From Protoeuglena noctilucae (taxonomy: Eukaryota), in NCBI GenBank assembly GCA_958009085.1, contig OY253682.1:744001-808000 (forward strand): a stretch of 64,000 nucleotides of DNA, written 5' to 3'. The translations under genes were made by a program, and so were the position numbers. Positions 1 through 63,969 of the stretch are shown here, piece after piece. The stretch's first letter is position 1; each line of letters opens with the position of its first letter. The notes below the pieces were generated by a model. The model was not told the origin of the DNA. It did not search any database and was given only the letters and a program-made list of their open reading frames with translations.

Positions 1-3000
1 TGGGACATGGATGCAACCACCATCGAGCGCATCGCCAGGCACCCACGCTGCGGCCGCCCGGTGCGCGACGTCGTCGACGGCTTCCCCGACCTCTCCCTCG
101 ACTGCGACGTCCAGCCCATCACGCGGTCAGTGCTCCGTGTTGTGCTGCGCATCACGCCCGAGGTGAGAGAGAAAGACGAAACAAGAGTGTCGAGGCATAT
201 TCAGGCCTCGTGTCAGTCAATCTGCATTGGCGCTCATACCACTGCCAGCGCCCGCTGCTCAGTGTGTGCCCTAGCCACTTGGGTGGTCATCTGGGCGGTT
301 GTCGGCACCGCCCCTCCCCAAACTCTTGCAGTTCAAGTGGCGTGACGGCATGCACGGCGGCGCCACCCGCTGGCACATCTGGGTGGAGGACGCGGAGAAC
401 GAGCACATCTACCACCACGAGACCTGGGCGCTGACCAAGAAGATGCACCGGGAGGGCACGCAGCCGGTGTCCTTCACCATCCCCGTCTTCGAGCCCCTGC
501 CGCCCCAGTACTTCGTCCGCGTGGCCAGCGACACGTGGCTGCACGCGGAGGCGGTCCACGAGATGCGATTTGACACCCTGGTGCTCCCGGACCGGGCCCC
601 CGCCCATACGGCTCTTCTGGACCTGGACCCTCTGCCACGCACGGCCCTCAGAGATCCCTCTTTCGAGGCCCTCTACCGCTTCTCCCACTTCAACCCAATC
701 CAGACCCAGGCCTTCCACGCCCTGTACCACTCGGACGACAGCGTGCTGATGGGCGCACCCACGGGGTCGGGGAAGACGGTCATGGCCGAGCTAGCCATGC
801 TGAGGTTGTTCAAGCACCGACCGGACTTCAAGGCGAGTGTGCGGGGGACGAGAAAATTAGGGTCTGCAAGTGTTCATGTTGGGAAGGCAGAGAAGGCGGG
901 GCTGTGCAGTTACCTGTGACCGTGACCGCCCTTGCGCCACCCAGGTCATCTACATCGCCCCGCTCAAGGCCCTGGTGCGCGAGCGGATCGAGGACTGGGG
1001 CGCGGGTCTCTGCCGCCACCTGGGGAAGCGCCTGGTGGAGCTGACGGGCGACCACACCCCCGACATGCGCGCGCTGCTGTCGGCGGACGTGATCGTGTGC
1101 ACGCCCGAGAAGTGGGACGGCATCTCCCGCAGCTGGCACACGCGCGGGTACGTGCGCCGCGTGGGGCTGCTGGTGATCGACGAGATCCACCTCCTCGGCC
1201 AGGACCGTGGCCCCGTGCTGGAGGTCATCGTGTCGCGCATGCGGTACATCGCCGCGCAGACGGGCGCGGGGGTGCGGTTCGTGGGGCTGTCGACCGCCCT
1301 GGCCAACGCCGAGGACCTGGCCGCGTGGCTGGGGGTCAAGCGCGCGGGCCTGTTCAACTTCAAGCCCAGCGTGCGCCCGGTGCCGATGGAGGTGCACATC
1401 CAGGGGTACCCGGGGAAGCACTACTGCCCGCGCATGGCCACCATGAACAAGCCATGCTACGCGGCCATCCAGATGCACTCCCCCTCCAAGCCCGTGCTCG
1501 TCTTCGTGTCCTCGCGCCGGCAGACGCGGCTCACCGCCCTCGACCTCATCGCCTACGCCGCCGCGGACGGGCGGCCCCGGGCGTTCGTGCACATGGGGGA
1601 GGCGGAGCTGGAGGCAGCGCTGGCCGGGGTGCGGGATGCGTCCCTGCGTCACACGCTGGGGTTCGGCATCGGCCTGCACCACGCGGGGCTCACGGAGGCC
1701 GACCGCAAAGTCGTGGAGGGGCTCTTCGTGGAGGGGAAGATCCAGGTGAGTAGACAAGGGTGGAGGGTTGCATGAGGTTGAGAGGATGCATGTGTTGAGG
1801 CAAGGTGCAGGGTGCTACATGGAGGCACGGAGTAGTGGAGAGAGTCCTGACATGTGCAGCGCTGGTACGATGACATCGCGTGTCCTCCTCCCCTCAGGTG
1901 CTGGTGGCGACGTCGACGCTGGCGTGGGGCGTCAACACCCCCACGCACCTGGTGATCGTCAAGGGCACCGAGTTCTACGACGCCCCCACCAAGCGGTACG
2001 TCGACTTTCCCATCACGGACGTGCTGCAGATGATGGGGCGCGCCGGCCGCCCCCAGTTCGACAAGCTGGGCGTGGCGGTGGTGATGGTGCACGAGCCCAA
2101 GAAGGGCTTCTACAAGAAGTTCCTCTACGAGCCCTTCCCCGTCGAGTCCTCCCTCCTCGCCGCCCTCCCCGACCACCTCAACGCCGAGGTGGCGGCCGGG
2201 ACCGTGGCCACCGCCCAGGACGCCATCGACTACCTCACCTGGACCTACTGGTTCCGGAGGCTGGTGCGCAACCCGTCCTTCTACGGCCTCCCCAGCGCCG
2301 AGGCCGACGACGTCTCGGCCTTCCTGTCCGAGACGGTCGAGGAGGCCCTGGGGGAGCTGGAGGGCGCGGGGTGCGTGGTGGTGGGGGAGGAGGGGCAGGT
2401 GCGATCGACCACGGCCGGCCGCATCGCCTCCTTCTTTTACCTCCGCCACGAAACGATCCGCGTGCTCCGGGACGCCATGGGGCCCGACATGGGCGTGGCG
2501 GAGGTGCTGGAGGCGCTCACCTCGGTGCCGGAGTTCGACGACGTGCCCGTCAGGCACAACGAAGACAGCATCAACGCGGCGCTCAACGACCAAGTGCGGT
2601 GAGTGGTCGCATGCCGCAGAAGCAAGGATCGGGCTGGCATAGCGCATGCGACTCTCTCTGCCGGCACGCACGCCCCCCGCCCCTCTCTCGCAGCTTCCCC
2701 GTCCCCGCTCGCTTCCTGGACTCCCCCCACGCCAAGGCCAACCTGCTGCTGCAGTCGCACCTCTCCCGCCTGCCCCCTCCCATCTCCGACTATACCACGG
2801 ATGCGCGTGCCGTCATGGACAACGCAGCGCGCGTGCTGCAGGCCATGGTCGACCTCAGCGCGGACGCGGGGTGGCTCGGCACCACGCTCTCCTGCATGCT
2901 CCTGGCGCAGGCCCTGACGCAGGCGCGGTGGCCCGACGCCCACTCGGCTTGCCAGCTGCCGGGGGTGGAGGACGAAGAGGGGGCGTTCCTGGCGTCGAGG

Positions 3001-4176
3001 GGGGTGCGGGGGATGCCGGACGTGCTCGAGATGCTGCGGGGGGGAGACGGGGGCGACGGGGCCGGGGAGGAGCGGCTGCGGCAGGCGCTGGCGGAGGTCC
3101 TGGGGGCAGGGGCAGTCCACCGGGCCATCGACGCGGCCAGGCGACTGCCGGCGATCGCCGTGACTGTCGGGGAGCCCAGGACGACGCGGGGGGATGGCGG
3201 GGCGCGGGCCCATGCGGAAAGGGCGGAGATCGCAGGCATTGATGCGGGTGTGGGTGGGAACGTGAAGCAAGACGGTGATGGAGTGGTGGAGATGGAGTGG
3301 CCGGCACTGGGAGCGGAGAAGTCGGGGATTGTCGTGGAGGCAGTGAAGTTCGACGCGGAGTCGGGTCCGGCTGGCCGCGCAGAGGGGCACGCAGAGGGGC
3401 GGGGTGCGTCGGACGCAGCTGGGCTACAGGGGTGGGCGACGGGGAGCCATGAGGCTCGGCGTGGTCGAGGACAGGGCGATGACGGGGCTGCGGAGTCGGC
3501 GGCGGACGGCGATGCCCCGCTGGAGGTGGAGGTGCGGCTGGAGCGGCTGACGGGGGGCAGGCTGCGAGGGGCGCATGGGCATGGGCCGCCCAGGGTGTAC
3601 GCGCCGCTGTTCCCCAAGGCAAAGGAGGAGGGGTGGTGGGTCGTGGCCGGCGACCGCGCCACGCGGGAGCTGCTGGCGATGCGGCGCGTGTCGTGCGGGC
3701 GGGCGGGCACGGCGCGGCTGCGTGTGCCGCGGACCAACGCCGCCGGGCGGCCCCTGGAGCGCGTGTGGGTGTTTGTGGTGTCGGACTCGTACCTGGGGCT
3801 GGACCAGGAGTACGAGGTGGAGGTGCCCGTCGAGGAACGTGCTGCGGCGGGCACCGCACGTGAGGTGGGGCTGCCAGGGCGGGCAGCAGGGCGGGCCGGG
3901 GGGACGGCTGGGCGGCGGGGGCGGCGGGGGTGGGGAGAGATCGCCGGGGAGGCTGAGGCGGAAGGCCCGTGCGTGGGGTTGGGCGGGGAGGGCGAGCGTG
4001 AGGTGGGTGAAGAGGGGCAGGCGGGGGATGACGGGGAAGAGGAGTTCTGGGACGCTGAGGGGGAGGAGGGGGCCGAGGGTGGCGAGGCGGAGGAGACGGG
4101 GGAAGGCGGCGCTGAGGAGGCGGCGCTGGAGCAGCGTGCCCGGTTCGCCAGGGGACGCGGGGGCGCGCGGGGATAG
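1..4176 (+). CDS. ASCC3: ASCC3/Slh1 (DExH14)-like Ski2-family helicase, C-terminal half (5' partial; second helicase cassette and Sec63 domains)
   Basis: Inferred exons <1-162, 332-832, 945-1745, 1898-2598, 2694-4176. Motifs: [19 protein letters not shown] (Walker A), [16 protein letters not shown] (DExH), [22 protein letters not shown], Sec63 KEEGWW...[23 protein letters not shown] is ASCC3-type rather than Brr2-type. Stop TAG ends at 4176. Confidence 0.92.
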
Positions 4177-4345: not shown

Positions 4346-7300
4346 CTACTCGGCCGCCCCCTCTGCCTCGCCCTCCCCCTCCCGCGTCGCCGCCTCCGCC
4401 TCCGCCACCGCCGCCACCGCCCGCTCGTGTGCCTCCCTCGCCGCCGCCACTGCCTCGTCCGCCACACGCTTCCGCTCCTCTGCGTCGGCCAGGACCTTCT
4501 CGGCCGCGTGCTTGGCCATCAAAGACAGGCCTGGGGGGGTAAGAAAGGCATCCAGATGTTCATAGTCAGATGGTTCATAATCAGATGTGAACAGGTCCGA
4601 GGCCGGGCTTCCCTAGCACGCCACCACCCCATAGCATCCCTCCGCACCCCTGGTTGTGACTCCTCACCAGCCTTCTTGCAGTGGTAGATCCACCGCAGGA
4701 GGAAGGACCCCACGGAGGTGCGCGGGCACTCCTTCTCAAACACCTTGACCATGTCCTCGGTGTTGAGGCCCGCCACGTTGGCCGCCACCCTCCGCACCGT
4801 CTCCGGGGGCACCGAGGCGAAGGACTCGGGGTCGTAGTTGGAGAAGGCATCCAGGATGGCCTTGCTGCGAGGGGGGAGAAGGAAGATGCTGTTGGTGACG
4901 AAGCAGGCCAAGGGGCAGTCTGCCATGGCTGGGGTGGACAGACGACAGAGCAGAGGGCAACGCGTCCATCACATCCCCACTCGTTCATGGTTCCACAAAC
5001 AATACTAAGTTCCTTCACTGAGCATCCTCCCCGTCGCACCTGAACCCCTGGAGGAAGGCGGTCCAGGACTCTGCCAGCTCCCCGCGGCCGATGATGCGGA
5101 CGGCGGCACGGAGGACCTGGAAGGTCGTGGCCGGCGACCGCGTGAGGGTGCGGAGGTCCACCATGGCCTGGGGCGCCACGCCCGCCACGGCCGACTTGAC
5201 CACCGTGAACTGGCGGCACTGCACCTCGGCCGCCGCCCCCGCCTCCTCCAGGGCCTGCCGCGCCGTCTTGATCGCCTCGAACGCCGCCTTGCGCTCGCGC
5301 CGCGCCGCGTCCACCGCCCACTCCGCCGCCGCCGCCACGGCCGCCGCCCGCTCGGCGCACCGCCCCAGCCACTCAGCCCGCTTGGCCTTGTTCCCCGCCT
5401 CCCTCTCCGCCCTGGCTTCCTCCTCCTCCCCCTCCCCCGGACCCGCGTCGTACTCCGGCTCGGGCTCCTCCTCAGGGACCTGAACAGCCACGACACGCGG
5501 GCAATGGGCAATCGGCACCCGCACAATGCGCAAGCTTCAGAGCAAGCAGTGACTGGCCACGCCGCCCCGCGCGAGTGCACCCGACAGCAGCCGGCCCGAC
5601 TCCCGTCTCGCCCAGCGCATCTCTGCACCCCTCCCCGCCCACCTCAGGCTTGTCGGGCATCTCTGTCTCCAGGTCGATGTCCAGGTCGTCCTCCACCTCC
5701 CCACCCTCGCCCTCGCCCTCCTCCTCTGCAGGGGGCGCCTCGACCTTCTTCGGCGCCTCCTTCACCACCTTGGCCTCCTTCGCCGCACTGGGTTCCTCCT
5801 TCTTCCCACCCTTGCCCTTGCCCTCGTCCTTCTTGGGCTCCGGGGCGGGGGCGGGGGACTCGTCCTCGGCGGAGGGCGGGGGCGCGCCCGCCTCGCGCGT
5901 CGCTACCTGCGAAGGGGCAGAGGCGCGAGGTCAGCCACCACCACCGTGTCGCAACGGTGCATGCGCTGGCGCATGGGGTACATCGACGGCACGAGCCCAA
6001 GCTGGGCGAACGCTGCCTTGTGCCATGTCTCCCGACACATGGACTGTGCCCAGGCTACCCCCGCACCGCCCCCCTCGCCTGCAGAGCCACGCGCAGTGGG
6101 TACGACCTCCGCTCGGCAGCAGCCGCTTCCGCCTCGGTGGCTATGGCCTCCATGGCAGCCTCCACGGCCTCGGCGACGGCGGCCACGTAGTCGCGGTCGG
6201 CGGCGGGGAGCTCGCGGCCGTTGTCCGCGGGTCGGTCGGGCATGACGGTGTCGGCGCACAGAACGGCGCGGCACTCGCGGTGGCGCCCCAGCAGCGCCCG
6301 GGCCAGGAAGGCCCCCACGCGCGGGAATCCGCGGAAGAAGGACACCGAGTTCTGCAACAGCACGTCCGGGAAGTACAGGCTCTGCAGCTTGTCGTCCAAA
6401 ACCCGGAAAAGCACTGCAGGACGCGAGAGATGCGCAGGGTTGACCCGTGCACGCCCCATGCAAATGCAGTCCATCGGCAACCAACCAAGCAGAAGCGACA
6501 CACAACGTTAGTAACCTCCGCAGCTCTCCTCCTCTGCCGCCCCTCACCGGGGACCTTGGGCGGGGGGGCGTCCTCCGGCGCGTCCTCGGCCGGCTCCGGC
6601 CGCCCCAGCTTGGGCGTCTCCTTGATCCAGTCCTGCCCCTCCGAGTGCACCACGTACTCGAAGAAGGCCTTGGAGTAGTCGTGGACCACGGGGGGCGGCG
6701 CCGCTGGGGCCTCCTCCTCCTCCTCCCCTTCCTCGTCCTCCCCGTCGCCCTCGGGCTTGCCCTCCACGGCGCCCGCCTCGCCCTCGGGCGCGGGCTCCGG
6801 CTCGTCATATGGCTTGTCGGGGTCCTCCGGCGCCTCCTCCTCGCCGTCCGCGGGCTCCTGGGGAGCCTCCTCGCCCTGTAGGGGCGACAGCGGGGGTGAT
6901 ACGCGCATGACGTGGGCAAGCGCACGCTGGGCGCGACGGCCGGGAAAGGCACGGATGCGGAAGAGCTTGAAGCCGTCGTATGTGGATGCCGTGGCCGTGA
7001 GCGGCCGGGCTGCGCGCGAGCGGGCCCACCTCGGGCACGGGAGGCTCTGCCGCGTCCTCCGCCGACACGTTGGCCACGTAGACGGCCGTGGCGGAAGTAT
7101 TCTTGATGCAAAGGTCCACTGCAGCCTGCCAGAGCGCCCATACGTCCTGGGTCGACCCTCGCAGGCCCTCCAGCTCCTCCGTGCGCACTGCGACGCGGGC
7201 CTCCTCTGCTGCGCGCGCAGCCGCCTCCTCCTTCTGCGCGTCGGGGTTTCCGAGGATCAGTGGGATGTGATTGTGACATATACGGCAGATGCGGCACCGG

Positions 7301-8819: not shown

Positions 8820-9734
8820 TCACAACTTCCCGGCCTCCTTGTCCTTGATCTTCTGCTCCCGCATGATCTTGAGCTCCTGCTTCTCCCGCTCCACATCCGC
8901 CATCATCTGCTCCAGCTCCGACTCGGGCATCTCCTCCAGCCGCTTGCGCATCACCGCCTCCTCGTACGCCTCCAGCTGCGGCAGGGGAGGGCGCAGGAGT
9001 CTCGCACGACGCAACGCCGCCGGCGTGCGTGGCGAGTGTGGGAGGGCTCTTTCGTCCCCGGGACACGTGCCACAGGTGCGGCGCTGATTCCCGAGGATGA
9101 TTTTCCCTCCAGTAATCTCAGCTGCGGTGCTGTGGGGTCCGGCTTCGAGGAGCGCTCGGACCCCTCGCGTGAACGCGCGGACACCGCAGCAGAGGGGCGC
9201 GGGGCCCGCGCCGGTCCCTCGCCTGTCGGACGTAGGTCATGTTCTTGGTCGCCACGCGCCAAAGGTACGTGGAGATCCACCCGATGCAGATGCCCAAGAA
9301 GATGATGAGCTGCACCCAATTCCCCGCGAGCCCGGCGTCCATCCCCGTCGCCTGCAGGCCTGCATGGATACAATAGAGACGCTTCTCGGCGATCGCGCGG
9401 CGACGGGGCGGAGCCGGCCACCAGGCTGCCTGTAGCGTCCCCATCGCCACTCACCGTAGTACATCGCGTACCCCAGCACAACCAGGCCCGCCCCGAGGAC
9501 GAGAACGTCCGCCCTCGTGTACCCGAAGCCGCCTAGAAGCTGAGGCTCCTCAGGGCGCGACGAGGTGGACGGCCCGTCGTTCTCCGAAGCCCGCACCGCC
9601 ACCACCTGCCGGGCTGGCCTGCACGGCGCACCCCGCGCCGAGCGCGGGAGGGCCAGGCTCCGCACGCCTCGCCCAGCTTTCGCAGCGGGGAGGCACGGGG
9701 AAGCAACCCCGCGAACCAGCCCGGTCGCCTGCAT
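8820..9734 (-). CDS. DUF3007-family chloroplast membrane protein, 3 exons
   Basis: Transit-peptide-like N-terminus ending VVAVRAS, then GYTRADVLVLGAGL, a second TM helix WVQLIIFLGICIGWISTYLWRVATKNMTY, and LEAYEEAVMRKRLEEM, typical of cyanobacterial/plastid DUF3007. Confidence 0.8.
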
Positions 9735-12125: not shown

Positions 12126-14779
12126 TCATGCACCCCGGGGCGTCGTGGGCGCAGACCTGGCGTCCGCCCACTCGGTGCCGTCCCCCGCCTGGCTGGAACC
12201 CTTGGCCCGCCCCTTGGGCCGCGGCCTCGCCTCGTCCCTCACCGCCCGCACCCACACGCCGTCCACGGGGGTGGCCGTGATGGAGACGCGGATGTCCAGC
12301 TCGTCGGGCTGGCCCGGCATGGGCTCCAGGCGGAAGCCACGCAGCAGGTGGATCAGCGCAATCTTGACCTCCTCCGTCGCGAACCGCTGGCCGATGCAGC
12401 TCCGGGGGCCCACGCCAAACGGACTGCGACGGTCGGGGTGACAAAGGACATGTAAATGCTGGGGTGCGCATGGCTGGCAAACAGCCCCGTCTTTGCCACA
12501 AGCGCGGGCGTCGCGAAGTGGCCAGCCTCTCCTCCCGCACTCGCCTGTACGCGTAGGGGTGGCTGGGCTCCTGGGGCCGCCCGTCCGGCCCTGGCGCGAA
12601 CCGTTCGGGCTTGAAGGCCTCCGGGTCGGTCCAGTACTTGGGGCTCCGGTGCAGGTAGCGCAGGGAGAAGAGCACCTCCGTGCCCTTCTCCAGCCTCAGC
12701 TCCCTCCCCGCCCCGTCGCGCACCACGCAGTCGGCCACACACGACCGCGAGTTGGTAGCCGTGGGGGGATAAAGCCGCAGGCACTCCTTCACAACCAGAT
12801 CAAGGTAGACGAACTCCGACAGGCGCTCAATGCTGCGGGGTGGAACAAAGCAAAGCTGTGAGACAGACAGACTCGCTCTGGGGTCGATGGTTCGTCTCTG
12901 CTCTGCTATGCGTACTAGAAGCTCGCGCCCTCGCCTGGGCTCCTGGCCCCCCGTGACCTCGGCGATCTCCTCGCGCACGCGCTCCTGGGCCTCCGGGTGC
13001 CGCGCCAGCAGGAAGATGGCGTAGGAGAGGGCAGTGCTGGAGGTCTCAGAGGCACCGAAGATGAACGTCCACACCTGAGGGGGCGTCCAGGTACGGAGTG
13101 AGAGGCCGGGGGGGCTGACACATACCGACATCGCGTGTTCCCATGTGCGGCCAGGGGCACAGGGGGGTTCAGAGCATGGCTCAGGTCCAGCCACTGACCT
13201 GTGCGATGGTCTGGTCGTCGGTCATGGGGAACTTGCGGTCCGCGCTCGACTGCAGGGACAAGCATGAGGACAAGCGTGACGTGTCACGCCACACGCTGCA
13301 TGGCGTGCCACACACGACGTGGCGTGCACAACGTGACCACCCCGAGGCAAGGTGCCATCCCCACCCACCGCTGCGCCTCCCCTCACCCGGTGCATGATGT
13401 CGAAGAAGCTCCCACTCTGCGCCGGCCCCTGCCCGCCCCCCTCCTTGGCCGCCCTCAGCAGCTGCTCCGACACGGACAGGAGCAGCGTGCGGGAGGCCAG
13501 GGAGTCGCGAGCGATGGCCGAGTCCATGAGCAGGGGCACCGCGGGGCGCAGCCACGGGGCCAGCAGGGGGAAGAACATGCGCAGGACGACGTGGGGGTTC
13601 TTGCTTGGCTCAGCTGCGGGTGAAGGGAGATGCGGTGAAAGAAATCACACAAGGGGTTCATGCTGGCTCGGCTGCGGGTCGTGGTGTGACACGGATCTTG
13701 CTCGGCTCAGCTGGGGTCGTGCAGAGAGGTGTCGGGGCCAGCGCACGCGCATGACAGCAGCTCTCGCCTGAGAGCTGGAAGGTCTTGACGAGGTGGGACA
13801 TGTTAGCGAAGGGGCACGAGCGTGGGATGTCGAGTCCCTTGATGTCCGTCAGGGGGCAGTCGAAGTCGAGGCCAAAGGCGCTCGTGCCCACGACACGCAC
13901 GCTCAGGTTGCCGGCCATCTGCGTGAAGACGGAGGGGCGGGGTTACAGGAGCTGCGAGGTAGCGGAGCCAGTACATATGGCCCTGCGGCGCTTGTATCCC
14001 CACCATGTGCAATTCCTTGCCCATTGCTTCTGCTCGCCTGGAATGCGTCAAAGTACTCCCCCTGGTCCGCCAGCCTGCCCACGTCCTCGGCGAACTTCTT
14101 GGCGCCCTGGCTCATCAGAGGCCGATAGAAGCGCAGGGCGTTCTCGTTCGATACCTGCGAGGGTCGGCAGGGCATGCGATGCGGTGCTGGGGTCAGAGGT
14201 AGCACACGCGTTTGCGTTCTTCCCTCCCCCGCCGCTCACCCAGGCCGTCCACGCCCCCCTCAGCTTCCGCCAGGTGGGTACGTCCGTCTCCGACGCCAGG
14301 TTCTGGCGCACCACTTGCGTGTCACGCGTGGACACCCCCGAGTCGAGGCCCACGGTGAGGCGGTGGGAGAAGGCGGCGAAGTTGCGGGACACCTCGCCGT
14401 AGAGCTCGGCGTCGACGGACGTCAGGAAGACGACGCTGCCCGTGATGGACGCGAACGTGTCGCCGAGCGTGTCGAAGTAGTGCTTCTGGGCCAGGTGGCC
14501 CTTGCCCGACTGCGAGGACGGTCGGGATCACGAAGATGAGACAACGGGCATATTTTCATGCGTATCGACACCCGCTGAGAGCCCGCATCTCGCCTTAAAG
14601 TGCTCGGCCACGGCCGGGTCAGCCGCGTTGCCCACGAGCCAGTAGAAGGGCGCCGTCGGGACGCCCTGCTCCCGGAGCCGGCGCAACATCCGGCGCTGGC
14701 CGATGCGCAAGCCGTACACGAACAGCAGCGCGGCGAAGAGCAGCAAGCTCCCGACCACGGCGGCGAGCGCTGTGGACAT
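12126..14779 (-). CDS. Cytochrome P450 (membrane-anchored), 9 exons
   Basis: N-terminal TM anchor ([23 protein letters not shown]), I-helix [13 protein letters not shown], ExxR (KECLRLYPP), PERF (FKPERF) and heme motif [11 protein letters not shown]. Confidence 0.93.
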
Positions 14780-18031: not shown

Positions 18032-20188
18032 TTAGTCGGCTGCCGACGTCGCGCCGGGGCTTCCCCAGACCCCGTCACTGCCGCCCATGCGCGTGATCTC
18101 GCTCAGCTGCCGCTGCAGGTAGGCGACCTCGGTCCTCACGAGGCTTAACCCGGCCGGGCGCAGGTCGCAGAGGCGCGACATCTCCTCTCGCACCACCGCG
18201 CTCTGCGCCGCGCCCCACGCATCCCGCCCCGCCATCAGCAGCAGCATCGTCAGCCTCTCCGCCTCCAGCTCCGCGCACACGTCAGACTCGAGCGGCGCCA
18301 TCCCCGCCGCGCTGCCCACGCCCGCATCCGCCGCCTCCCGCACGCTCGCGCCCCCTGGCCCTGCCCCACCCACCACACCGTGCCGCACGCCGCGCCGGTG
18401 CTGCCTCGCCACCTCGTCCCGCACCATCGCAAACAGCGGCATGCAGCGCAGCTCCTGCAGCAGGAAGGCCCGCTGGTGGCCCGGCACTGCGCAGTTCTCC
18501 CGGCACGGCGGCACATCCAACGTCGACAAAGGCTCCGCCTGGGGTCCCGCCTCGGCGCCCGCGCCGGTCCTCTCGTCTGCGCACGCACCCGAAGAGCACT
18601 CGCCCTTCCCACACCCGTTCTCGCCACACCCAGTCTTCCCGCACCCGCTCTCACCACACCCGCTGTCGCCACACACGCCCTTGCCACGTGCCCCCGTCCC
18701 GCCGCCCCCGTGCGACATGCGCAGCGTGATGAAGCTGAGTCCCCGCGGCGGCAGCGACAGCAGGAGGTCCCCGACGAGGTCCCTCGCTTCTCCGTGCTCC
18801 GACGCCGCGACCATCGACGGCAATGTCTCTGCCACCAGGCGGTAGCCATCCACCCAGCCGCGATTCTTGACGTCCACGGTAAACGCCAGGCTTTCGCCTG
18901 AGGTTAGAGGAAAGACAGCACGGTTGCACGCTTTGAAACTGTCTCAGCGCAGTCCCAACCATGCAAGCAACCACCCGGGCTGCCGCTCGCCTGGCGCCTT
19001 GGTCAGCTTGATGTACCCCCGCGTGAGGCCCGTGTCTGGGTCGGTGCGCCCCATGGCCTCGAACAGTAACGGCAGGGACACCCAGTGGGGAGGGTACTTG
19101 AACCGCGCCACGTCCAGCACCAGGGCCATGTCCCGTGTCCGGTTGTACGCACCCAGGGGGGAGTAGTGGCCGTCGCCGGTCTGGCGCACTCCCTGCCGCG
19201 AATACGACACGATCAGGTGGGGATTGCCCTGGGAACACGCCTCCTCCACCTCACGCCTGCACGACATGGGCCACGGCACAGTTGAGGTAGCAAAGTTCGT
19301 GACTGGCAGCACATGCTATCGGTCTTTCTTCGGTTATCTGCCAGATGCCCGGCGCTCGCCTGAACTGCTCCAGGGTGGTGGTGCTCTGCAGCACGGCCTC
19401 CGCCTGTGCGCCGTTGCAGCGGGCGAGGCACGCGAGCTTGCCCATCGCTATGCCGTGCTCCCGGATGCGCTCCAGGGGCTCGCAGCAATCTGCACCCAAG
19501 CAGAGTCGTTAGGCTGCATCATGTCCAGTGTTCTTCTCAGCACACAACTGCAAGCACATGCATCAGCTAGCCACGCACCGAGGAGATCTTCGCTGAACCA
19601 CCGCCAAGGTCCCTTCCAGGGCCGTCGAGGATCGATGGCGAGGGCGTTGAGCACCATCGCCAGCGACGCCAGCCCGCAGTAGGCAGGCTCGTCCTGGGTG
19701 TGGAATTGCTCGATGAGCTGCGGGCGGGCGGGCGCAGGGCAGGTGAAGACGGGAACGCAGGCGATAAATTCCAGCACTCTTATGCATGTCGGGCGCCTCG
19801 CCTTGAAGAAGGACTCGGCGGTTCCGTCCGCCAGGGCCTCAACGAAGATCTGTCGGCCTCCCGGGGACGAGAAGGGCACGCAGATGTCCGTGGGCAGCTC
19901 GCGCATATAGAACGTCATTTTCTTCCAGTTCTCGGTCGTCGGCGGGGTGTGGACGCCGACTCTGCGGGGCTTGTGCTCGGCCAGCGCGTCGCGGGGCGGG
20001 TACCACGGGAGCTCCCTGTCCGGGACCGGCTGGTGGCAGCTGGGGCAGCGGTCGGGATCGTCAACGTGCGAGTGTTTTGACGCAGCGGGGTCCGCGTCGG
20101 AAAGCTGGGCCACGCCGCGCGCTGCTCCCAGCAAAGTGCAGACCAGGGCACGCTGCCGCACTAGCCCGGCCGACAGGCGCCGAAGCAT
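18032..20188 (-). CDS. PCS: Phytochelatin synthase (glutathione gamma-glutamylcysteinyltransferase), 5 exons
   Basis: [23 protein letters not shown] (catalytic Cys), [34 protein letters not shown] (His), [13 protein letters not shown] (Asp) and a Cys-rich C-terminal domain. Confidence 0.95.
18608..18682 (-). repeat. 15-bp coding tandem repeat (5 copies) in the PCS C-terminus encoding Cys-Gly pentapeptides
   Basis: cccacacccgttctc / gccacacccagtctt / cccgcacccgctctc / accacacccgctgtc / gccacacacgccctt, which translate as [25 protein letters not shown]. Confidence 0.85.
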
Positions 20189-26298: not shown

Positions 26299-26330
<32 letters not shown>

Positions 26331-50700: not shown

Positions 50701-53700
50701 CGACAAGTGCCGAGATGTGATGATGCAACATTTCCACCGTGCTGTGAACATGTCACCCACCCCTCACCTCCTCGTGCGTGACAACACAGAGCCCCCATTC
50801 ACCCCTCACCTCCTCGTGCGTGGCTCGGAAGCGAGGGACGTCCGCGGCTGGGATCTGCAGCATGGCCGTGGGGTTGATGACCGTGGATTTGCGGTACATG
50901 AGGCGGTGGGTGGAACTGGAGTGGGTGGGGGGCGAGGGGGTCATTATCATCACTTATATGTCGTGACACTGTTAGTACTCCTATCATGACTGTGATATGC
51001 AGCTACCATCTAAAGTCACGACCACCCCGCCTCTCCCTCTCCCTCTCATCCACTCTCACCTCAGCCCCGCCAGCACCACCTCGTCCCCCTTGTGTATCTC
51101 CGCACGACACGGACCCAGGCCGGGCGTACGCACGGGCCGCGGGGGTCAACGCCTGAGGATCGAACCTGGGACGTGAAAACGGATACGCGATGAGTCAATC
51201 AAAACCATACGGTTAACTCTTTTTTAGAAGTTTGACTGCGACTGTCACTTCCATCCCTTCCGCCCTTGCCCACCACCCCCGCCCGCACCCTCACCCTCAC
51301 CCCCGCACCCACCCCCGCTCGCTCACCGCAGAATGGCGAAGTTGTGCAAGGGGTGCAGGAACACACAGTGCATGCCTCACCACCCACGCACACATGCTCA
51401 CCTCAGGATGGCGAAGTTGTGCAAGGGGTGCAGGAACACGGCCCTGGCCTCGACCTCGCAGGGGTGGACGGGGAGGTCGAGACGAATATCCCCAGGCGAG
51501 ATGACGACTGTGTTGCGATCGACCAGGACCAGCCCCACTGTGTCGCTCTGGTACACGATCAAGCCACTGCCCACGAAGGACCGGGAGTAGACGCCGTCTG
51601 GCAGAGCCACCAAAGGCAGCTCCGAGTGCACGTTAACCAGGCTGGGGATGAGCTGGGACTCGAAGTGGGGGAGCACGGCCGCGGGGGGGTCGATGCCCAA
51701 AGGCGCGTCGTCCCTTGCCTCCACCACTGAGGGCCGCGTGCCCGGGGACAGCGGCTGGCGAGTGGGCGAGGCGGGGTGCGCGTCGAACAGATCGCCCTCG
51801 CCCTGGGGACAGGGTAGGGAGGGTGAGTGGGTGTGATGCAAGTTGTACTTGGGCGTCTACGATTGGCTACAGCATGGCAATGAGTGCTCTGTTCTACCAA
51901 GCGCCACCCACCCCACATGTGAGAGATCCAACCCCCTCACATCCTCACCACCACTGCTACTGCTACCCCCACCCGTCCCCCGCCCACCCCAACCCCTCAC
52001 CTCGCCATGCCCGTCCGCCGCGCCCCTACCCCGCCGCCCAGCCTTCTTCCCCGACCCCCTCCCCTTCCCGGGGCTTTTCGTGACTTCCGCCACGCCATTC
52101 GCAGCCCCTTCCTTTGTCCCGTCCCAGCCCTCCACCGGGTGCCACCTGCCCTCCGCATCGGACCGCTCCCAGAGCACCAGAGGCCCGTAGAACTCATCGG
52201 ACGTGCGGAGCAGGGCGCTCTTCATGCGGTGGCGGTTCATGCTGGTGAAGTACTGCACGGGGATTTGCTGACCAGGCCGCATGGCAGCCAGCTCAGCGGC
52301 CAGGGACGCGAGGGTGGGGACGGGGCGGTGGTTGACCTGAGTCAGGATGGCCCCCTTGGGGACGCCCGCGAGGGAGAGCATGAAGCCGGGCTGGGAAGTG
52401 GGGGGGAGGGAGGGAGGGCGTTGGTGGGGTGGGGTTGGGGGCGGAGTGGATGAGCGGGGGTTAGGGTCGGGGGTGCAAGTGCGGTGCGAGTGGTAGAGCA
52501 AACGTGGCAAAACGTGGCAGAGCAGGCTTGGACACCACCACAGAGTAAAGGTGACAGTGCCATCCCACGGCTGCACAGCTGCATGCATGCACTCTCACCT
52601 CTGCCACGTAGCCCCAGTGCTACTCTGTGACTGCACAGCTACCCGCATGCACTCTCACCTCTGCTCCCCAGAGCCAGTGCCACGCTGTGACTGCACTGCT
52701 ACATGCATGCACCCATTCACCTCAGCCACGTAGACTTGCCCCAGGGGCGCGTTGATGTTGCGTGCCTGCTGGTAGGAGAGCTCGTGGATGGACGCGCCCC
52801 CCACTTCGATGAAGCGGCGGGGGGTGACGCGGTGGAGGTCCAAGACGGACAGCTCACAAGAGACACGGGCGCCGTGGCTGGGGAGGGTGGTGAGGGGCGC
52901 ATGGGAATGGGGGTGAGGGGTGCAGAGAGGTGAGGGAAATAGGAGATGCATGGCGCTCTCTCCCTCTGTCACACACTCACCGGTCGACCACCACCTCCAC
53001 CTCCCGCTTGTCCCGGCACGCCTCGTCTAAGATCTCCTCCATGAATCGGAAGTCGTTGATCAGGCGACCATCTAGAGACACCAACACATCACCGGGCTGC
53101 GGGGGGGCAGATGGGCAGCACCGTGTGTCATGCTCATGCTGGCTTTGTATGCTACGTATGCTGTGATGGCATGCTTGCGCACACCAGCTGCTCCCTGCAA
53201 TCTCAATCTCACCATGAGCTTGCCATCTACGGGCCCCTCTGGGATGAGGGAGTCCAGCACCAGCATGCCGGTGTTGCTGGTGGCCTCCGCCTCGATCGCT
53301 GCAGGGCACGGGACAAAGCACGAATGACCACTGGCGTATAATCAAAGGTGATGGAGCACGAGTGACGACTGGTGTATCAGCAACGCCTGGCACTTGGGAC
53401 CCCAGTCATCGCCCCCCCCAAACTTGCCTGCCTTGTGCACCAGCTCTCTATCCCACCTGTGACCCCACTCCTCGCCCACCCACCCCTCGCGCCCCACTCC
53501 ACTCGCCTGCCTTGCGCATCAGCTCCTCCGTCTCAGGCTGGCAGTTGAGCCTTCGAATCTCCTCGAATCCCAAAAAGGTCCACGTGGAGCCCAGGTCGCC
53601 GCGGGGGATGACCGGGGCCCGCCACTTGCCACGGAGGGCGTTGTTGCGGCCCAGAGGGTTGGCCTCCTGCGCGCGAGCCGAGGCGGTGCACATAGGGTGC

Positions 53701-55348
53701 GCACATAGCGTGTGTTTGCATGGGCAAATGGTGCCGTGGCTGTCACTGTCGCCCACCCCCCGAGCTACTCTCAGTGTCCCTGCCTGCGCCACGCGTTGCC
53801 CCCACACTCATACATTACATCGGAATTCGAATCCTCGCCTGGATGAGCTTCAGAGCCGACACGACCCTCCACAGGGGCAGGTAGTACCCGGTCGCTCCCT
53901 TGGTGCGGGCGCCGGCGTTGAGGGCCACGGCGTTCCCGTGGATATCCACGACGGGCGACCCCGAGCTGCCGCCCTTGGTGCCAGAGGCTGCCTGGATGTA
54001 GAAGGTGTTGAAGTCGTTGAAGCTCTTGGCGCCGTACGTCGGGGCCTTGCGGTCCAGGCGCGCTATGGTCCCGGCCAGGATCGAGAGCTTCTCGCCTGCG
54101 AAGCAAGGAGTTGTTAGATGCGATGTAGCGAACGCATAGCAATGGACGGGCGGCGACGGCGACGGGGGGCGTGCCGGCCGCATGTTGAGTTGCGCATGCG
54201 CCGCGCGACGGCACGTGTGCAGCACTCCTCACCGCTGTCGTTGCCGACGACGCGGATCTCCGTGCCGACGCGCGCCAGATCGGGCCGCAGCGGTATCTCG
54301 TCGAGCTTGAGGTAGCGGAGCTGGGCCGGATCAAAGCGCATGAAGCCGAAGTCGTGGACGGGGTCGTAGTAGACGGGGAGGAGCTCCACCTCTTCGTGAT
54401 TCTGAAATATGCCTTCTGCGGGCAGGGCGGCCCACTATACCGTCGAGAGCGGGCGCGGGGGACGAATGATGGGCCGCCAAGCAAACGCGCGGGCCCGCCT
54501 CCGGGGCCATCCGTGCGCCACAGCGGACATCCCAAGAGGTTCAGTAAGTGCCTTACCGGCGACGATGGGGCCCGGCGTGACCACATGGCGATTGGTGAGG
54601 ATGAGGCCGCGGTGCTTGTCCACCACGAAGCCGGTAGCGCTCGCCGACCCCGCCGCCTCCGTGTCAAAGGCCCGCGTCTGCGTGATCCTGCGAGGATGAC
54701 ACGACATAGCCGCTGAGTGCATCGAACGGACTGCTCCATGCAGCGGGGAGCGCGCAGCGGCGTGAGGTCAACCCGCGACCGGGCGGACGGCGGGCACCGC
54801 GTCTGCGGCCCGAAAGCGACACGCGCGGGCAATCCGCTTATGCCAGCGACCGGAAACATCGTCAAAGATACCACGAGAGCACAGGGAACGGCGATTATCT
54901 GCGTGACGGCTGCGCATTGCCGCCTTGCCCTAGCACAGCGTGTGTGCGGCTGGCTGCGCGACATGCCGCCATCACCGCAAACCAAGGAGGGCGGAAATGA
55001 CAATTGTCATAGCATGGAATTTTCGGGGAATAAAAGCACCGCGAGAGGGTGCGGCGCAGCGACGCACTTGATCACGATTGTGAAGGGCACCACTTTTTCC
55101 AGAGCCGACTGCCAGCTCGACCCCTGCGCAGCGAACTCCTCCATCCCGTTAGCGTTGGGAGCCATGACAACCTCCTCCTGGGGCGCGTGCTGGGTGAGGG
55201 CCTCAAAAAGGCGGTCCCCCCCGAGGGTGCTGGCGGCGCGGACGCCGACCCTGCCGCACAGGGGCACCAGACGACGCGGTAGTAAGCTCTTGGAAACGGG
55301 GATACGGCGCAGTAAGCTTAACCCAACGTTACAGGCGGTCGCGGGCAT
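47790..55348 (-). CDS. DEG7: DEG7/Nma111-type HtrA serine protease (duplicated protease plus PDZ domains), about 19 exons
   Basis: [32 protein letters not shown] (His), DPVHDFGF (Asp), [11 protein letters not shown] (Ser), [13 protein letters not shown] and C-terminal [14 protein letters not shown]. Candidate ATGs at 55348 and 55165. One exon appears frameshifted (see findings). Confidence 0.92.
52555..52733. repeat. About 60-bp tandem repeat (3 copies) spanning a DEG7 exon/intron boundary
   Basis: Lines 52561, 52621 and 52681 align with a 60-bp period (ctgcacagct..gcatgcactctcacctc..ccagtgc). Confidence 0.85.
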
Positions 55349-59867: not shown

Positions 59868-62800
59868 TTAGAACGGCGCAGGCCACAAGCCGCGCCAATC
59901 CGCTGTCGCACCGCGGCGTCCAAGCGTTTCCGTATCTACTGCGCCCGGGAGGCCGCCACCGTCCGCTCGATTGACAAGAAGAGCTCCCCGATGTCGCTCT
60001 TGGCACCCTTGCCTCCCTGCGAACGGACCGGCGGGTGGCGCTGACCCCAGCATGCGTGCGCTGGAAAAAGGACACAGAGGGCCACGCCCGTGCAAGCGCC
60101 CGCTCGCCTGCTCTGTCGCGGCTGGTTCCTGTCCGAGCGCGTCAGCCACCCGCGCCTCCAGCTCCGCCCGCACGTTGCTGGGTAGCGGCGTCACGCCCAC
60201 CGCCCCCGGCCCTTGCTCCCCCTGCCGCAAGTAGGCCAGCAGGTCCGCGGCCGTCGCACGGAGGGCCTGCGAGCGAAGATAGCATGGCAGATGCCCTGTC
60301 ATGGATACCCTAAGTACATGCAGATGCCACTACCTGCCTGTGCAGGTTGCACCCTGAGACTGTAGTACTACTCAGTATCCACCCTCACCCGCGGAATGGC
60401 GTTCTGCCGGCCGTCCACCGCCTCCCTCCGCCCCCGATCGATGATCCCCAGCACTGCAGACGCCGACACCTGCAGCGGGCACAGCGTTGCACCATCAAGC
60501 ACACATGCTGTGCGTGTTCAAAGTGCAGGGAACTCGCACATGCGCGCGCTTCCCGTGCCCCCTGCACCCTCCCCGACACCTCCCCTCTCTATGCACCACC
60601 CCTCACCGGCCCCGGCTCCCCATCCGCCGCCCCCCTTGCATCCTCCTCCGCCCCCGCCAGCCCCGCCCCGGCCCCATCCGCACCCTCCGCAACCGCTCCC
60701 TGCACCCCGTCCGCTCCCCCATGGCTCAGCACCCACCGCCACGAGTGGCCCCTGCCGGACGCCCCAGCACCGCCACCTTTCCCCGCCCATTGCCCCGCAG
60801 CGTTGGGACCGCTGGGGAAGACCTCTCCCGACACCACCGCCCGCTCCAGCACCGCGACCGGGTCCTCTCTCAGCAGAGAGCTCTGAGGGCAGCGTGTGGA
60901 GGCGCTGTGGTATGAGAGGGCGTCTGACTAGGCGAGCTCGACAACGGTGGGAACAAATAGCAAGGAAAGGGTGGAACTTGAGCCAATCTGACGAGGGAAC
61001 CACCAGGCATAGCACAACTCTTGCGAACACGAACTCAAGTGTGCAAGCAGACTGACCTGGCTGATTCCGGCGAGCGACAGCGCCAGAAGGGCGTGCCAGA
61101 GCGCGAGCAGGGCCCCCGCCGCGGCCGAGACGGCCTCCCGCTCCGTCATGGCGAGCGACGACCACGGGGAGGTGGCGGCGGGCGCGGCGGGGAGTGGGTC
61201 GGGCCGTGGGGGCGGGGCGGAGGTGCGGGACTTTTTGGGGGTGCGGAGGGGCGGCGGGGGCGGGGGCGCCGTGGGGGGCGCGATGCCCTGCAGATAGGCC
61301 TGCGAAGAGGGTAGTGGTTGCAGATAGGAAGAGAGTCACAGCACCGTTGCACCTGCCATGGCAGCGCCGGGTGCACGTCCGCTTACCACCCACACCCTGT
61401 GCTCACCTGCCTTGTTTGAAGTGACCTATATAAGATATACATCGGACAAGCGCCTCTCCTCACCTGCAACGCCCGCACCCCGATCGCCTGCTCCTCTGCC
61501 CCCACGCCACCCTCCCTGGCCAGCCGCACCACCACCTCGGCAATCCCTGACCCCTGCAGCCCCCGCAGCGTCGCCCGCACGCCCCGCAGCCCCACCAGCA
61601 CGTCGATGACCGTCGCCGCAGACACGCCACCGCTGCCGCCCCCGCCGCCGCCCCCACGCTTGCCGCCCCGGGTGGGTGCGACGGGAGCCGCGTGCTCGGC
61701 CTCCCACTGCTCGAGGACCTGCCAGGATAGTCATACGAAGTAGAGATTATACTCAAAGACATAGGAGCGAGGTGACGAGGACGGTACGGGAGATGCAAAC
61801 TACCTGTCAATGCAACAGCGACAAAGTGTCCCTCGCAATGCCACAACCCCATACCTCGTCTCTCACCTTGCGACCCTGCGCCATGACCCGTGCCTCTTCC
61901 TCGTTCGGCTCCCCTTTCATGAACCCCTCCACCACGCCCCGCACGCGCTCTCGCACCGACCGCTCCTGCCGGGCCACCTGGCGAAGGAGACAACGGAGTT
62001 GATGATGGAGTGAGATAGTGATAGTTACCAAACACTCATCTGCACCCCATCGCTCTATCAGCAACGCCCTCACCAGTTGCTACCGACACACCCATAGTTA
62101 ATACTATCATCTCCACCCCCCACCTGCATCAGCACCGCCACCGCCGCCTCCCGGGCGTCCCCCGCCCGGGCCCTCTCCTCGTCCCGCAGCGCACGCAGAC
62201 GACGCAAGTGGCTGACCTCGGCCGCCCCGCCCAGCCGCTGCTGGCCGTCGTTGCCGCGCTTGGACGAATGCACTGCGGACGTGGCACGGTGTGAGACGTC
62301 TCATGGCATGGTGTGGTGCACGCGAATGATACTGCATAGCCAGGATTAGAACTAGCTACTACAACAGGTGCGGTGATCTGTGGAAGGGCGTGGGATGGGC
62401 AGGGTAACACAAATGTCGCACTCATGCACACTGATGCCATGTTTAAACAGAACACCATCTACCCAGCCCACCCCTCACCTGGCATGTCGATGAGCGTCGT
62501 GGGCACGATGGCGCCCTGCGGCTTCCCCCCCGACGCCACGATGAGCTCGTTGAGCCACTTGTGCACCCCGGACATGTTGCCCACGTTCAAGGGGCTGTGC
62601 ACCGCCACGCCTGGCTCAGACCGGTAGGCTGGGGGGACAGGAGAGGGATGCATGGTTTGGTGCATGACCGTGTGCCATGATCCGTGTATCCATGGCAACC
62701 TTGCCATCCATGCTCATGGCAGTCACTGCACCCCGTCACAGCACTGCAACTGCCCCCGTGCTACCCCCTTGCTTCCCTGTCATGCCCCTCCCTGCCCCTC

Positions 62801-63969
62801 ACACCACCACCACCACCATCACTCACTGTAGTGCCCGTCCCGCGTGTCCCTCTCCTCCCCCGTGGCTGCCAGTATCTCCTGGCCTGACTCAGTGATCACG
62901 TAGAAGCGCATCCCACGTCGCTGGTCCGAGTACATGGACTTCTCCACCCTGCAAACACGGCAGACAGTCCGAGTACATGAACTTCTCCACCCTGCAATCA
63001 CGGCAGACAGTCCGAGTACATGAACTTCTCCACCCTGCAGGTGGTGCCATTTCGCAAATACCGCATCCCACTTATACTGCTGAATGGTTGTTGAGCATCA
63101 GGTGACGTCTGGTTAACCGCACAGCCATGCGCCATGCACCCTCACCGGAACCCCGTCAGGACGACGGGGGCCTGCTCGGCTGCCTGGGGTGGCGCTCCCT
63201 GCCCCGAGTCAGCCGGCGCTGCCGCCGTTGCCACCGGCTCTGCCCCGGGGACACCCGCCCGGTGCCGGGACGCTGCCATGACCTGCATACGCGAGCGACA
63301 GAGTGAAAGGTGGTATTCGCTATGCATGCCTGGCTACCTGGCTGTGGCTGAAAGCGCGTGGCTGTCCATGCTTTTATCTTGATGACTCCCGAAGCACGAT
63401 TCCTTCTCATTTCCACTAATTCTAAGCCCGTCTTGCTCCCGCTACTACACCCACCTCGCCTCGCTTCCTGTAACCATGCCCAGCGCCCCTCGCCTGTTGG
63501 AGGAAGGCCATGAGCTCCTTGCGGTTGTGGGCGGACAGGGACCCGAACTGCTGCACGGCATCGGTGTTCTTGTAGTGGTAGTGGGCATCTCCTTGAGAGG
63601 TCTCCTCTCCCTCCGCAGCTGCGACCGGCGAGGGCAGAGGGCCACGTCGCACGGGCCAGGGTAGCGCGGCGGGTGCAGTGCGGATGAATGGCTAAAGGGC
63701 AGTCTGCGCCCACGACGCCCCGTGCAGCTCACCCAGCACGACGCGGCCCTCATTCGTGGTCAGGTAGTACTTGATGATGCGCGCCTTGCCCTTCTTGATT
63801 TTCTCCTCCTTGAAGTCCACGAAGAACTCGTTCGGGGCCAGGACGAGCGCCGGCGGCTGCGCGGGGCGAGGCCAGGGCGGGCGTGAGATGAGAAGGACTG
63901 CAGCATGAGCGCGAGCGCGAGCGCGGGAGGCTCGGGAAGTCCTGGTGCGGGTCGCCGGACCTCAAACAT
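59868..63969 (-). CDS. Putative nuclear protein with two tandem N-terminal domains resembling the N-terminus of plant BAH/Agenet proteins, followed by helical segments; about 10 exons, start tentative
   Basis: Repeat 1: FVDFKEEK..RIIKYYLTTNEGRVVL|AAEGEETSQGDAHYHY..NRKELMAFL. Repeat 2: LTGFR|VEK..MRFYVITESGQEILAATGEERDTRDGHYS|Y..NMSGVHKWL. Confidence 0.55.
62924..63040. repeat. 43-bp tandem repeat (about 2.7 copies) spanning an intron acceptor
   Basis: gtccgagtacatg(g/a)acttctccaccctgca(a..acggcagaca) recurs at 62924, 62967 and 63010. Confidence 0.9.

What the first reader, a model, noticed from the sequence alone, without database searches (positions are those of the whole stretch)
833..63493. 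Roughly one in five introns appears to use a GC 5' splice site, almost always AG|GCGAG
Seen: keeping proteins in frame implies GC donors at 833 (ASCC3), 9222 (DUF3007), 14593/14037/13767/12934/12544 (P450), 16276 (Sfi1-like), 19801/19359/18990 (PCS), 27310/25727 (MetH), 39400 (EF-Ts), 40517 (RPS3A), 42535 (PGR5), 45377/45734/46126/46606 (FtsZ1), 53838/53506 (DEG7) and 63493. That is 23 sites among roughly 110 introns counted by hand. All follow exonic AG, and 22 read GCGAG (one reads GCAAG). GT donors tolerate varied exon ends. Established: GC-AG introns are about 1% in most eukaryotes and rely on otherwise optimal U1 pairing. Inference: this lineage has relaxed +2 recognition or strong GC mutational pressure at donors. 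Standard gene finders would mis-annotate many of these genes.
Basis: partly seen in the sequence, partly recalled or inferred. Interest (0 to 1): 0.7.

Follow-up and report, generated by a model that had tools for sequence, protein, structure and literature searches.

The report
Abundant GC-AG introns in green alga
About a quarter of the introns in this stretch of a GC-rich marine green alga really begin with GC instead of GT, but only where the rest of the splice signal is perfect, a trait already described in a few other GC-rich algae.

Summary
All 23 sites read AG|GCGAG (25727: AG|GCAAG). Fourteen are proven by spliced RNA. Six come from marine metatranscriptome contigs. Eight come from two 100%-identical transcript-like proteins, P0122 and P0131. 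Six more fit homologues or profiles without gap or overlap. Three rest mainly on my own gene model (16276, 53506, 63493).

A curated tally gives 27 GC donors in 109 introns, 25% (95% CI 17-34%).

GC occurs almost only in the context AG|GYGAG. There the count is 26 GC to 17 GT; elsewhere it is 1 GC to 65 GT. The C share in that context (0.60) equals the C/(C+T) ratio inside introns (0.60).

The GC introns share no sequence with one another and carry no U12 motifs.

A MetH tree places the organism beside Pedinophyceae sp. YPF-701.

The phenomenon is in print: Aureococcus 39.6%, Micromonas pusilla 22.2%, Chlorella 7.7% (PMC3033335) and Emiliania huxleyi about 56% (PMC4028052). This is a real case in a further lineage, not a new kind of thing.

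The parts
833..944 (+). GC-AG intron (AAG|GCGAGT), ASCC3-like helicase gene
   Evidence: The upstream exon ends at about residue 978 of human ASCC3 (8alz_B) and the downstream exon starts at 979. Ab initio model. Forbidding the donor costs 30 bits.
8976..9222 (-). GC-AG intron (CAG|GCGAGG), DUF3007 gene
   Evidence: The flanking exons match Pfam DUF3007 positions 24-67 and 69-96, the latter from residue 2 of the exon, so they are collinear. Model. Forbidding the donor costs 9.5 bits.
14510..14593 (-). GC-AG intron, cytochrome P450 gene
   Evidence: Exact mapping of the 100%-identical transcript-like protein P0122.
13919..14037 (-). GC-AG intron, P450 gene
   Evidence: P0122 mapping.
13614..13767 (-). 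GC-AG intron, P450 gene
   Evidence: P0122 mapping.
12833..12934 (-). GC-AG intron, P450 gene
   Evidence: P0122 mapping.
12424..12544 (-). GC-AG intron, P450 gene
   Evidence: P0122 mapping.
16276..16381 (+).
   Evidence: Ab initio model only. Forbidding the donor costs 12.2 bits. The exons have no Pfam hit.
19718..19801 (-). GC-AG intron, phytochelatin synthase gene
   Evidence: Exact mapping of the 100%-identical transcript-like protein P0131.
19257..19359 (-). GC-AG intron, phytochelatin synthase gene
   Evidence: P0131 mapping.
18898..18990 (-). GC-AG intron, phytochelatin synthase gene
   Evidence: P0131 mapping.
27076..27310 (-). GC-AG intron (CAG|GCGAGA), B12-dependent methionine synthase gene
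   Evidence: Best-scoring junction against two green-algal MetH proteins. Model.
25523..25727 (-). GC-AG intron with GCAAG donor, methionine synthase gene
   Evidence: Best junction against two homologues; the best GT alternative (25709) scores 16 lower because it adds 6 residues. My ab initio model wrongly chose 25694 here.
39191..39400 (-). GC-AG intron (AAG|GCGAGC), EF-Ts gene
   Evidence: The upstream exon ends at residue 43 of E. coli EF-Ts (1efu_B) and the downstream exon starts at 44. Forbidding the donor costs 21.9 bits.
40517..40626 (+). GC-AG intron, ribosomal protein S3Ae gene
   Evidence: RNA contigs of runs X2, X3 and X5 skip it; GC..AG is the only placement.
42382..42535 (-).
   Evidence: RNA contigs of runs X1, X2, X3 and X5 skip it.
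45377..45469 (+). GC-AG intron, FtsZ gene
   Evidence: RNA contigs of runs X2 and X3. The Pfam Tubulin profile runs 42-93 then 94-187 across the junction.
45734..45901 (+). GC-AG intron, FtsZ gene
   Evidence: RNA contigs of runs X2 and X3.
46126..46388 (+). GC-AG intron, FtsZ gene
   Evidence: RNA contigs of runs X2 and X3.
46606..46801 (+). GC-AG intron, FtsZ gene
   Evidence: RNA contigs of runs X2 and X3.
53667..53838 (-). GC-AG intron, DEG7-like protease gene
   Evidence: The donor at 53838 is best for 6 of 6 homologues; the best GT alternative scores 16-41 lower.
53299..53506 (-). Probable GC-AG intron, DEG7-like protease gene
   Evidence: Model. Forbidding the donor costs 33 bits. Only the nearest homologue, P0252, prefers it (+12); the other five homologues scored there each chose a different junction.
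63283..63493 (-). Probable GC-AG intron in a gene of unknown family
   Evidence: Ab initio model only. Forbidding the donor costs 11.7 bits and brings in a GT donor at 63454.
5907..6078 (-).
   Evidence: Ab initio model. Forbidding the donor costs 22.8 bits.
60017..60107 (-).
   Evidence: Ab initio model. Forbidding the donor costs 8.9 bits.
17055..17201 (+). Weak candidate GC-AG intron (GAG|GCGAGG)
   Evidence: Ab initio model. Forbidding the donor costs only 7.0 bits, and a GT alternative exists at 17118.
48901..49107 (-). Weak candidate GC-AG intron (GAG|GCGAGG), DEG7-like gene
   Evidence: Ab initio model. Forbidding the donor costs only 2.1 bits, and a GT alternative exists at 49080.

Best explanation
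These are ordinary major-spliceosome (U2-type) introns whose second base is C instead of T. The host is a GC-rich (67%), intron-rich marine green alga. In it a T-to-C change at donor position +2 is tolerated wherever all other donor positions that pair with U1 and U6 are optimal: exonic A-2 and G-1, then G+1, G+3, A+4, G+5. In that context +2 behaves like an unconstrained pyrimidine, so the GC-biased base composition carries about 60% of such donors to GC. Donors with any weaker position keep T.

Shown: that the introns are removed, the context rule, and the match to composition. Inferred: that the major spliceosome removes them, and that the cause is compensation by U1/U6 pairing plus compositional drift.
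For: Removal at exact GC..AG borders is seen in RNA contigs and in transcript-like proteins for 14 sites. Collinearity with homologues or profiles supports 6 more.

Context rule in the 28 RNA/transcript-backed introns: within AG|GYGAG there are 14 GC and 3 GT; in other contexts 0 GC and 11 GT (p=3e-5). In the curated 109 the counts are 26/17 against 1/65 (p=1e-12).

The C share at +2 in the optimal context is 26/43 = 0.60. C/(C+T) in intron interiors is 0.598 (n=7362).

GC and GT introns do not differ in length, local G+C or acceptor: CAG in 27/27 and 81/82.

Allowing GC donors raises the parse score by 1245 bits, against 250-444 bits for six decoy dinucleotides.

A contig of run X1 that is collinear with the genome over 45724-46143 shows no difference at the two GC donors it covers. 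This speaks against base-calling error.

Precedent: GC-AG abundance in GC-rich algae together with a consensus U1 5' end (PMC3033335).
Against: No genome was available, so the frequency comes from one 64-kb window. Of the 109 introns, 61 rest on a gene finder that I trained on this same window. With GC disallowed, that finder accepts 10-26 'introns' at decoy dinucleotides.

The non-verified GC donors were kept by a score that rewards the consensus, so the 26/17 against 1/65 table is partly circular. The RNA-backed subset is not.

Composition alone cannot be the whole cause. Chlorella sp. and Micromonas RCC299 have similar G+C but only 7.7% and 2.7% GC-AG (PMC3033335).

The C share at synonymous NNY codon sites is 0.915, so which 'neutral' reference applies is debatable.

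U1, U6 and the splicing proteins of this organism could not be examined.
Confidence: 0.82

Rival explanations
1. The lineage's 5' splice-site recognition machinery has itself changed, for example in U1 snRNA modification, U1C, Prp8 or U6 contacts, so that C and T at +2 are equivalent. GC pressure then only reveals this relaxation. This overlaps with the best explanation rather than excluding it.
For: The C share in the optimal context equals composition (0.60 against 0.598). This would be unexpected if even weak selection against C acted in what is presumably a very large population. Algae of similar G+C differ tenfold in GC-AG share, and their U1 5' ends are consensus, so the authors pointed to base modification or proteins (PMC3033335, passages read).
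Against: A GC donor is found only with a fully optimal context: 0 of 11 RNA-backed non-optimal donors are GC. This is the classical compensation pattern and shows that C at +2 still costs something. No snRNA or splicing-factor gene could be inspected: Rfam finds nothing in the window and no genome is held.
Confidence: 0.25
2. Modelling artefact: nearby GT donors are really used and the GC sites only look right by frame.
For: For 63493, 17055 and 49107 a GT alternative costs only 11.7, 7.0 and 2.1 bits in my model. For 53506 the more distant homologues disagree.
Against: It is excluded for 14 sites by RNA or transcript evidence with no GT placement possible. For 6 more the junction is collinear with homologues or profiles.
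Confidence: 0.03
3. The GC-AG introns are copies of a mobile 'introner'-like element that carries its own GCGAG end.
For: The donor heptamer is nearly invariant. Introner families are known in Micromonas pusilla (recalled, not checked here).
Against: An all-against-all BLASTN of 119 introns gave 7 non-self hits, all among four GT introns of one gene and none involving a GC intron. GC intron lengths spread from 84 to 263 nt.
Confidence: 0.03
4. They are minor-spliceosome (U12-type) introns, or sequencing errors at T.
For: None found.
Against: 0 of 109 introns have a U12-like donor or branch motif. Chlorophyta are reported to lack minor snRNAs (PMC11347168, passage read). An independent environmental contig reproduces the GC at two donors.
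Confidence: 0.01

Closest known systems
Abundant GC-AG introns in GC-rich algae: Aureococcus anophagefferens 39.6%, Micromonas pusilla 22.2%, Chlorella sp. 7.7% (Iwata & Gotoh 2011, PMC3033335; abstract and passages read)
   Same: A GC-rich (65-70%) algal genome in which GC-AG makes up a tenth to a third of introns. M. pusilla is also a marine green alga with nearly the same share. GC and GT introns show no length difference.
   Different: This organism is intron-rich, with roughly 5 introns per modelled gene, and groups with a pedinophyte rather than with Mamiellophyceae. The strict context rule and its match to composition were not in the passages I read.
Emiliania huxleyi: about 56-60% GC donors (Feldmesser et al. 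2014, PMC4028052; abstract and passages read)
   Same: GC-AG is common, the acceptor stays AG, the trait is attributed to 65% G+C, and GT-centred gene models are wrong.
   Different: E. huxleyi is a haptophyte and GC is the majority donor there. Here GC is the majority only within the optimal context.
Pelagophytes: 14-17% GC-AG in Aureococcus strains, about 14% in Pelagomonas, 0.32% in lower-GC Aureoumbra (bioRxiv 10.1101/2024.10.30.620910; passages read)
   Same: The GC-AG share tracks genome G+C among relatives.
   Different: These are stramenopiles and are intron-poor (0.1-0.9 introns per gene).
Ordinary rare GC-AG introns of animals and plants: 1.3% over 61 species in PMC3033335. That they have a stronger donor consensus is recalled from older literature, which I did not read here.
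   Same: The same compensation logic applies: C at +2 goes with an otherwise optimal donor.
   Different: The frequency here is about twenty times higher.

Membership tests
U2-type GC-AG spliceosomal introns | The intron is removed from mature RNA exactly between a GC start and an AG end | tested here: met
   Six sites by RNA contigs and eight by exact mapping of P0122 and P0131.
U2-type GC-AG spliceosomal introns | The rest of the donor matches the U1/U6-complementary consensus more strictly than in GT introns | tested here: met
   AG at -2,-1 in 16/16 GC donors against 8/17 GT donors (p=0.0009); GAG at +3..+5 in 15/16 GC donors.
U2-type GC-AG spliceosomal introns | No U12-type donor (RTATCC) or branch (TCCTTRAY) motif; the motifs were written from memory | tested here: met
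   0 of 109 introns carry either motif.
U2-type GC-AG spliceosomal introns | Spliced by the major spliceosome, with a consensus U1 5' end | not testable with these tools
   No genome is held and there is no snRNA in the window.
GC-rich algal genomes with abundant GC-AG introns (as in PMC3033335) | Genomic G+C of about 64% or more | tested here: met
   The window has 67.3% G+C. This covers the window only.
GC-rich algal genomes with abundant GC-AG introns (as in PMC3033335) | The GC-AG share is far above about 1-2% genome-wide | tested here: inconclusive
   27 of 109 in this window.
Introner-like mobile introns | Copies share internal sequence | tested here: not met
   No BLASTN hit involves any GC intron among the 119 introns compared.

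The most novel reading that the evidence does not exclude
In this lineage, position +2 of the donor may have become selectively invisible whenever the remaining donor is AG|G.GAG. The C share there (26/43) equals the pyrimidine composition of intron interiors. Algae of equal G+C (Chlorella sp., Micromonas RCC299) have far fewer GC donors. Together these would point to a heritable change in a protein or RNA-modification component of 5' splice-site recognition rather than to base composition alone. That would give a tractable handle on the 'enigma' stated in 2011.
Probability: 0.25. Interest if true: 0.6.

Novelty: new member of a known kind. Interest (0 to 1): 0.35.

Why it matters
There is a practical point and a modest scientific one.

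Practical: gene models for this organism and its relatives will be wrong in many genes unless GC donors are allowed. In my control a GT-only parse split 22 genes into 35 pieces.

Scientific: this adds an intron-rich, pedinophyte-like green alga to the short list of GC-rich algae with abundant GC-AG introns. It also gives a sharp rule: GC only in AG|GYGAG, at the frequency that composition predicts. That rule could help separate mutation pressure from changed splice-site recognition, which the literature leaves open (PMC3033335).

Tried and rejected
1. Whole genome: none is held, so no genome-wide tally and no snRNA search was possible.

2. Rfam on the window: no hit.

3. Metagenome scan with the large MetH exon, done to fetch the organism's own transcripts or close relatives' introns. 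The best loci were only 71% identical and the rest were mostly around 46-65% identical and were not examined further. There was no own-organism contig, so orthologous intron positions could not be compared.

4. A loose end of a run-X2 contig near 39423 was tested as possible proof of the 39400 junction. It matches nothing in the window and probably comes from another organism.

Junctions at 39400, 53506 and 53838 could therefore not be read from RNA.

6. First gene finder, one strand at a time: it merged genes and lost plus-strand genes to antisense 'shadow' coding, recovering 22 of 33 verified introns. I replaced it with a two-strand parse, which recovers 30 of 33.

7. Ab initio errors found and corrected by evidence:
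- 19571 and 19660; the true donor is GT at 19578.
- 25694; the true donor is 25727.
- The GT intron at 39780 was missed.
- A likely false micro-exon at 45043-45078 with a GC donor at 45079.

8. Uneven spread of GC donors among genes (P450 5/9, FtsZ 4/5, DEG7-like 3/19): permutation p=0.06, not significant. There is no link to local G+C (p=0.24) or to intron length (p=0.60).

9. Candidate organisms checked in papers. Pseudoscourfieldia, Chloropicon and Mamiellophyceae are intron-poor. Prasinoderma coloniale has 69.8% G+C, but the paper gave no splice data.

11. Earlier notes of this scan: none for this genome. Two notes on Ostreococcus introns do not bear on this finding.

12. Literature searches for GC-AG together with green-algal names found no report for pedinophytes. 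Searches were ranked by the number of terms held, so they do not exclude such a paper.

Full report
**What was claimed and what the sequence shows**

All 23 listed positions carry an exonic AG followed by GCGAG on the stated strand. The exception is 25727, which reads GCAAG. The heptamer AGGCGAG occurs 38 times on both strands, against 15.4 +/- 4.0 in dinucleotide-preserving shuffles; none of 100 shuffles reaches 38. The window has 67% G+C. No whole genome is held for it, and Rfam finds no RNA gene in it.

**Direct RNA evidence**

A search for sequencing runs found marine metatranscriptomes from three studies that hold part of 39000-48000. I laid four of them, from two studies, on 36500-56000. 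Of 41 joints, 15 were displayed.

I placed each joint within its stated ambiguity. Nine are GT..AG and six are GC..AG, and for the six no GT placement is possible. The six are the claimed donors 40517, 42535, 45377, 45734, 46126 and 46606. The other three claimed sites in that stretch (39400, 53506, 53838) were not among the displayed joints.

A contig of run X1 runs collinear with the genome over 45724-46143. It covers two of the GC donors and shows no difference there, so the C is not an assembly error.

**Transcript-like proteins**

Searching with single exons returned two proteins that are 100% identical to the window: P0122 (545 aa, on a 1777-nt contig) and P0131 (551 aa, on a 1953-nt contig). 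Those contigs are too short to hold the genomic genes. I therefore take them to be transcript assemblies, although I did not read the contigs themselves.

Exact mapping gives these structures:
- P450 gene: nine exons and eight introns, of which five are GC-AG (14593, 14037, 13767, 12934, 12544) and three GT-AG.
- Phytochelatin synthase gene: six exons and five introns, of which three are GC-AG (19801, 19359, 18990) and two GT-AG.

At every junction only one placement has a GY start and an AG end.

**Homology and profile collinearity**

- MetH: green-algal homologues score GC donors best at 27310 and 25727, and GT donors best at the other three junctions.
- 833: the exons on either side abut at residues 978|979 of human ASCC3.
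- 39400: the exons abut at residues 43|44 of E. coli EF-Ts.
- 9222: the exons match DUF3007 profile positions 24-67 and 68/69-96.
- 53838: six of six DEG7-like homologues prefer it. They also confirm eleven GT junctions of that gene.
- 53506: only the nearest homologue agrees. The other five scored there each chose a different junction.
- 16276 and 63493: no outside evidence.

**How frequent**

I wrote a two-strand Viterbi gene finder. It uses a three-periodic Markov coding model and a donor matrix that ignores position +2, so that GT and GC compete on equal terms. It recovers 30 of 33 evidence-backed introns and of the 23 claimed sites.

I then corrected its known errors, dropped three low-confidence models and set aside two weak GC calls. 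The tally is 109 introns with 27 GC donors, 24.8% (CI 17-34%).

Controls:
- A GT-only parse loses 1245 bits and splits 22 genes into 35.
- Six decoy dinucleotides gain only 250-444 bits over the GT-only parse. They still attract 10-26 calls each, which sets the scale of the finder's false positives.

**The rule behind it**

In the 33 evidence-backed introns, all 16 GC donors follow AG, against 8 of 17 GT donors (p=0.0009).

| Set | AG\|GYGAG context | Other contexts | p |
|---|---|---|---|
| 28 RNA/transcript-backed introns | 14 GC, 3 GT | 0 GC, 11 GT | 3e-5 |
| Curated 109 introns | 26 GC, 17 GT | 1 GC, 65 GT | 1e-12 |

The curated table is partly circular, because the non-verified GC donors were kept on the strength of a consensus score. 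The RNA-backed table is not circular.

The C share in the optimal context is 0.60, and the C/(C+T) ratio in intron interiors is 0.598. At two-fold synonymous sites the ratio is 0.915.

GC and GT introns do not differ in length, local G+C or acceptor. GC introns share no sequence with one another, and no intron carries U12 motifs.

**What it most likely is**

These are ordinary U2-type introns. C at +2 is tolerated only where every other donor position is optimal, and in that setting +2 drifts with the GC-biased composition. Removal of the introns and the context rule are shown. The roles of the major spliceosome and of U1/U6 compensation are inferred.

A changed recognition machinery cannot be excluded, and it is the more interesting reading.

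**Who it is**

A tree of the large MetH exon places the window with Pedinophyceae sp. YPF-701 (support 100/98), at the base of the core Chlorophyta. This is one gene only. The YPF-701 genome is 27.9 Mb with 70% G+C, and its preprint does not contain the word 'splice'. Genes for Flattop and for a Dpy-30-motif protein suggest a flagellate.

**What is known**

Iwata & Gotoh 2011 (PMC3033335, passages read) report GC-AG shares of 39.6% in Aureococcus, 22.2% in Micromonas pusilla, 7.7% in Chlorella sp. and 2.7% in Micromonas RCC299. They find consensus U1 5' ends in Aureococcus and both Micromonas genomes, and they call the origin an enigma.

E. huxleyi has about 56-60% GC donors (PMC4028052). Pelagophytes have 14-17%.

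My searches found no report for pedinophytes.

**Verdict**

The phenomenon is already described in other GC-rich algae, so this is a new member of a known kind.

Noticed in passing
window 27311-29095 (-): A single-gene (MetH) tree places the window's organism as sister to Pedinophyceae sp. YPF-701 with 100/98 support. No protein more than 76% identical was found for this exon, so the organism's spliced proteome seems largely absent from the protein collection.
   Followed up: partly
window 12106-13131 (-) and 51860-52594 (-): The protein collections hold unspliced, prokaryote-style ORF calls of this window (P0121, and probably P0251) that read straight through introns. They look like 100% hits but say nothing about splicing.
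   Followed up: yes
window 45724-46143: A contig of RNA run X1 is collinear with the genome across two FtsZ introns. It is either unspliced RNA or DNA in the RNA library. It carries G>A at 45946.
   Followed up: no
all modelled introns: The acceptor is almost invariant: CAG in 108 of 109 curated introns. The most common donor core is GTGAG or GCGAG, with G rather than A at +3.
   Followed up: partly
The joining 'intron' 42937-43228 (CTT|GTGATT) is probably false.
   Followed up: partly
window 44744-45235 (+): The first FtsZ intron is probably a single 492-nt GT-AG intron. The model's 36-nt micro-exon (45043-45078) with a GC donor at 45079 adds only 4 bits and would insert 12 residues into a conserved stretch.
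   Followed up: partly
window 47889-52720 (-): Four GT introns of the DEG7-like gene share weak similarity to one another (71-84% over 37-100 nt, partly in inverted orientation). This may be a short repeat or low-complexity sequence.
   Followed up: no
window 41201-41248: Several RNA contigs break off inside the ribosomal protein S3Ae gene with loose ends that encode similar but different sequence. They probably belong to related organisms in the same samples.
   Followed up: no
window 21962-22528 (-): A GNAT acetyltransferase gene is the only modelled gene without an intron.
   Followed up: no
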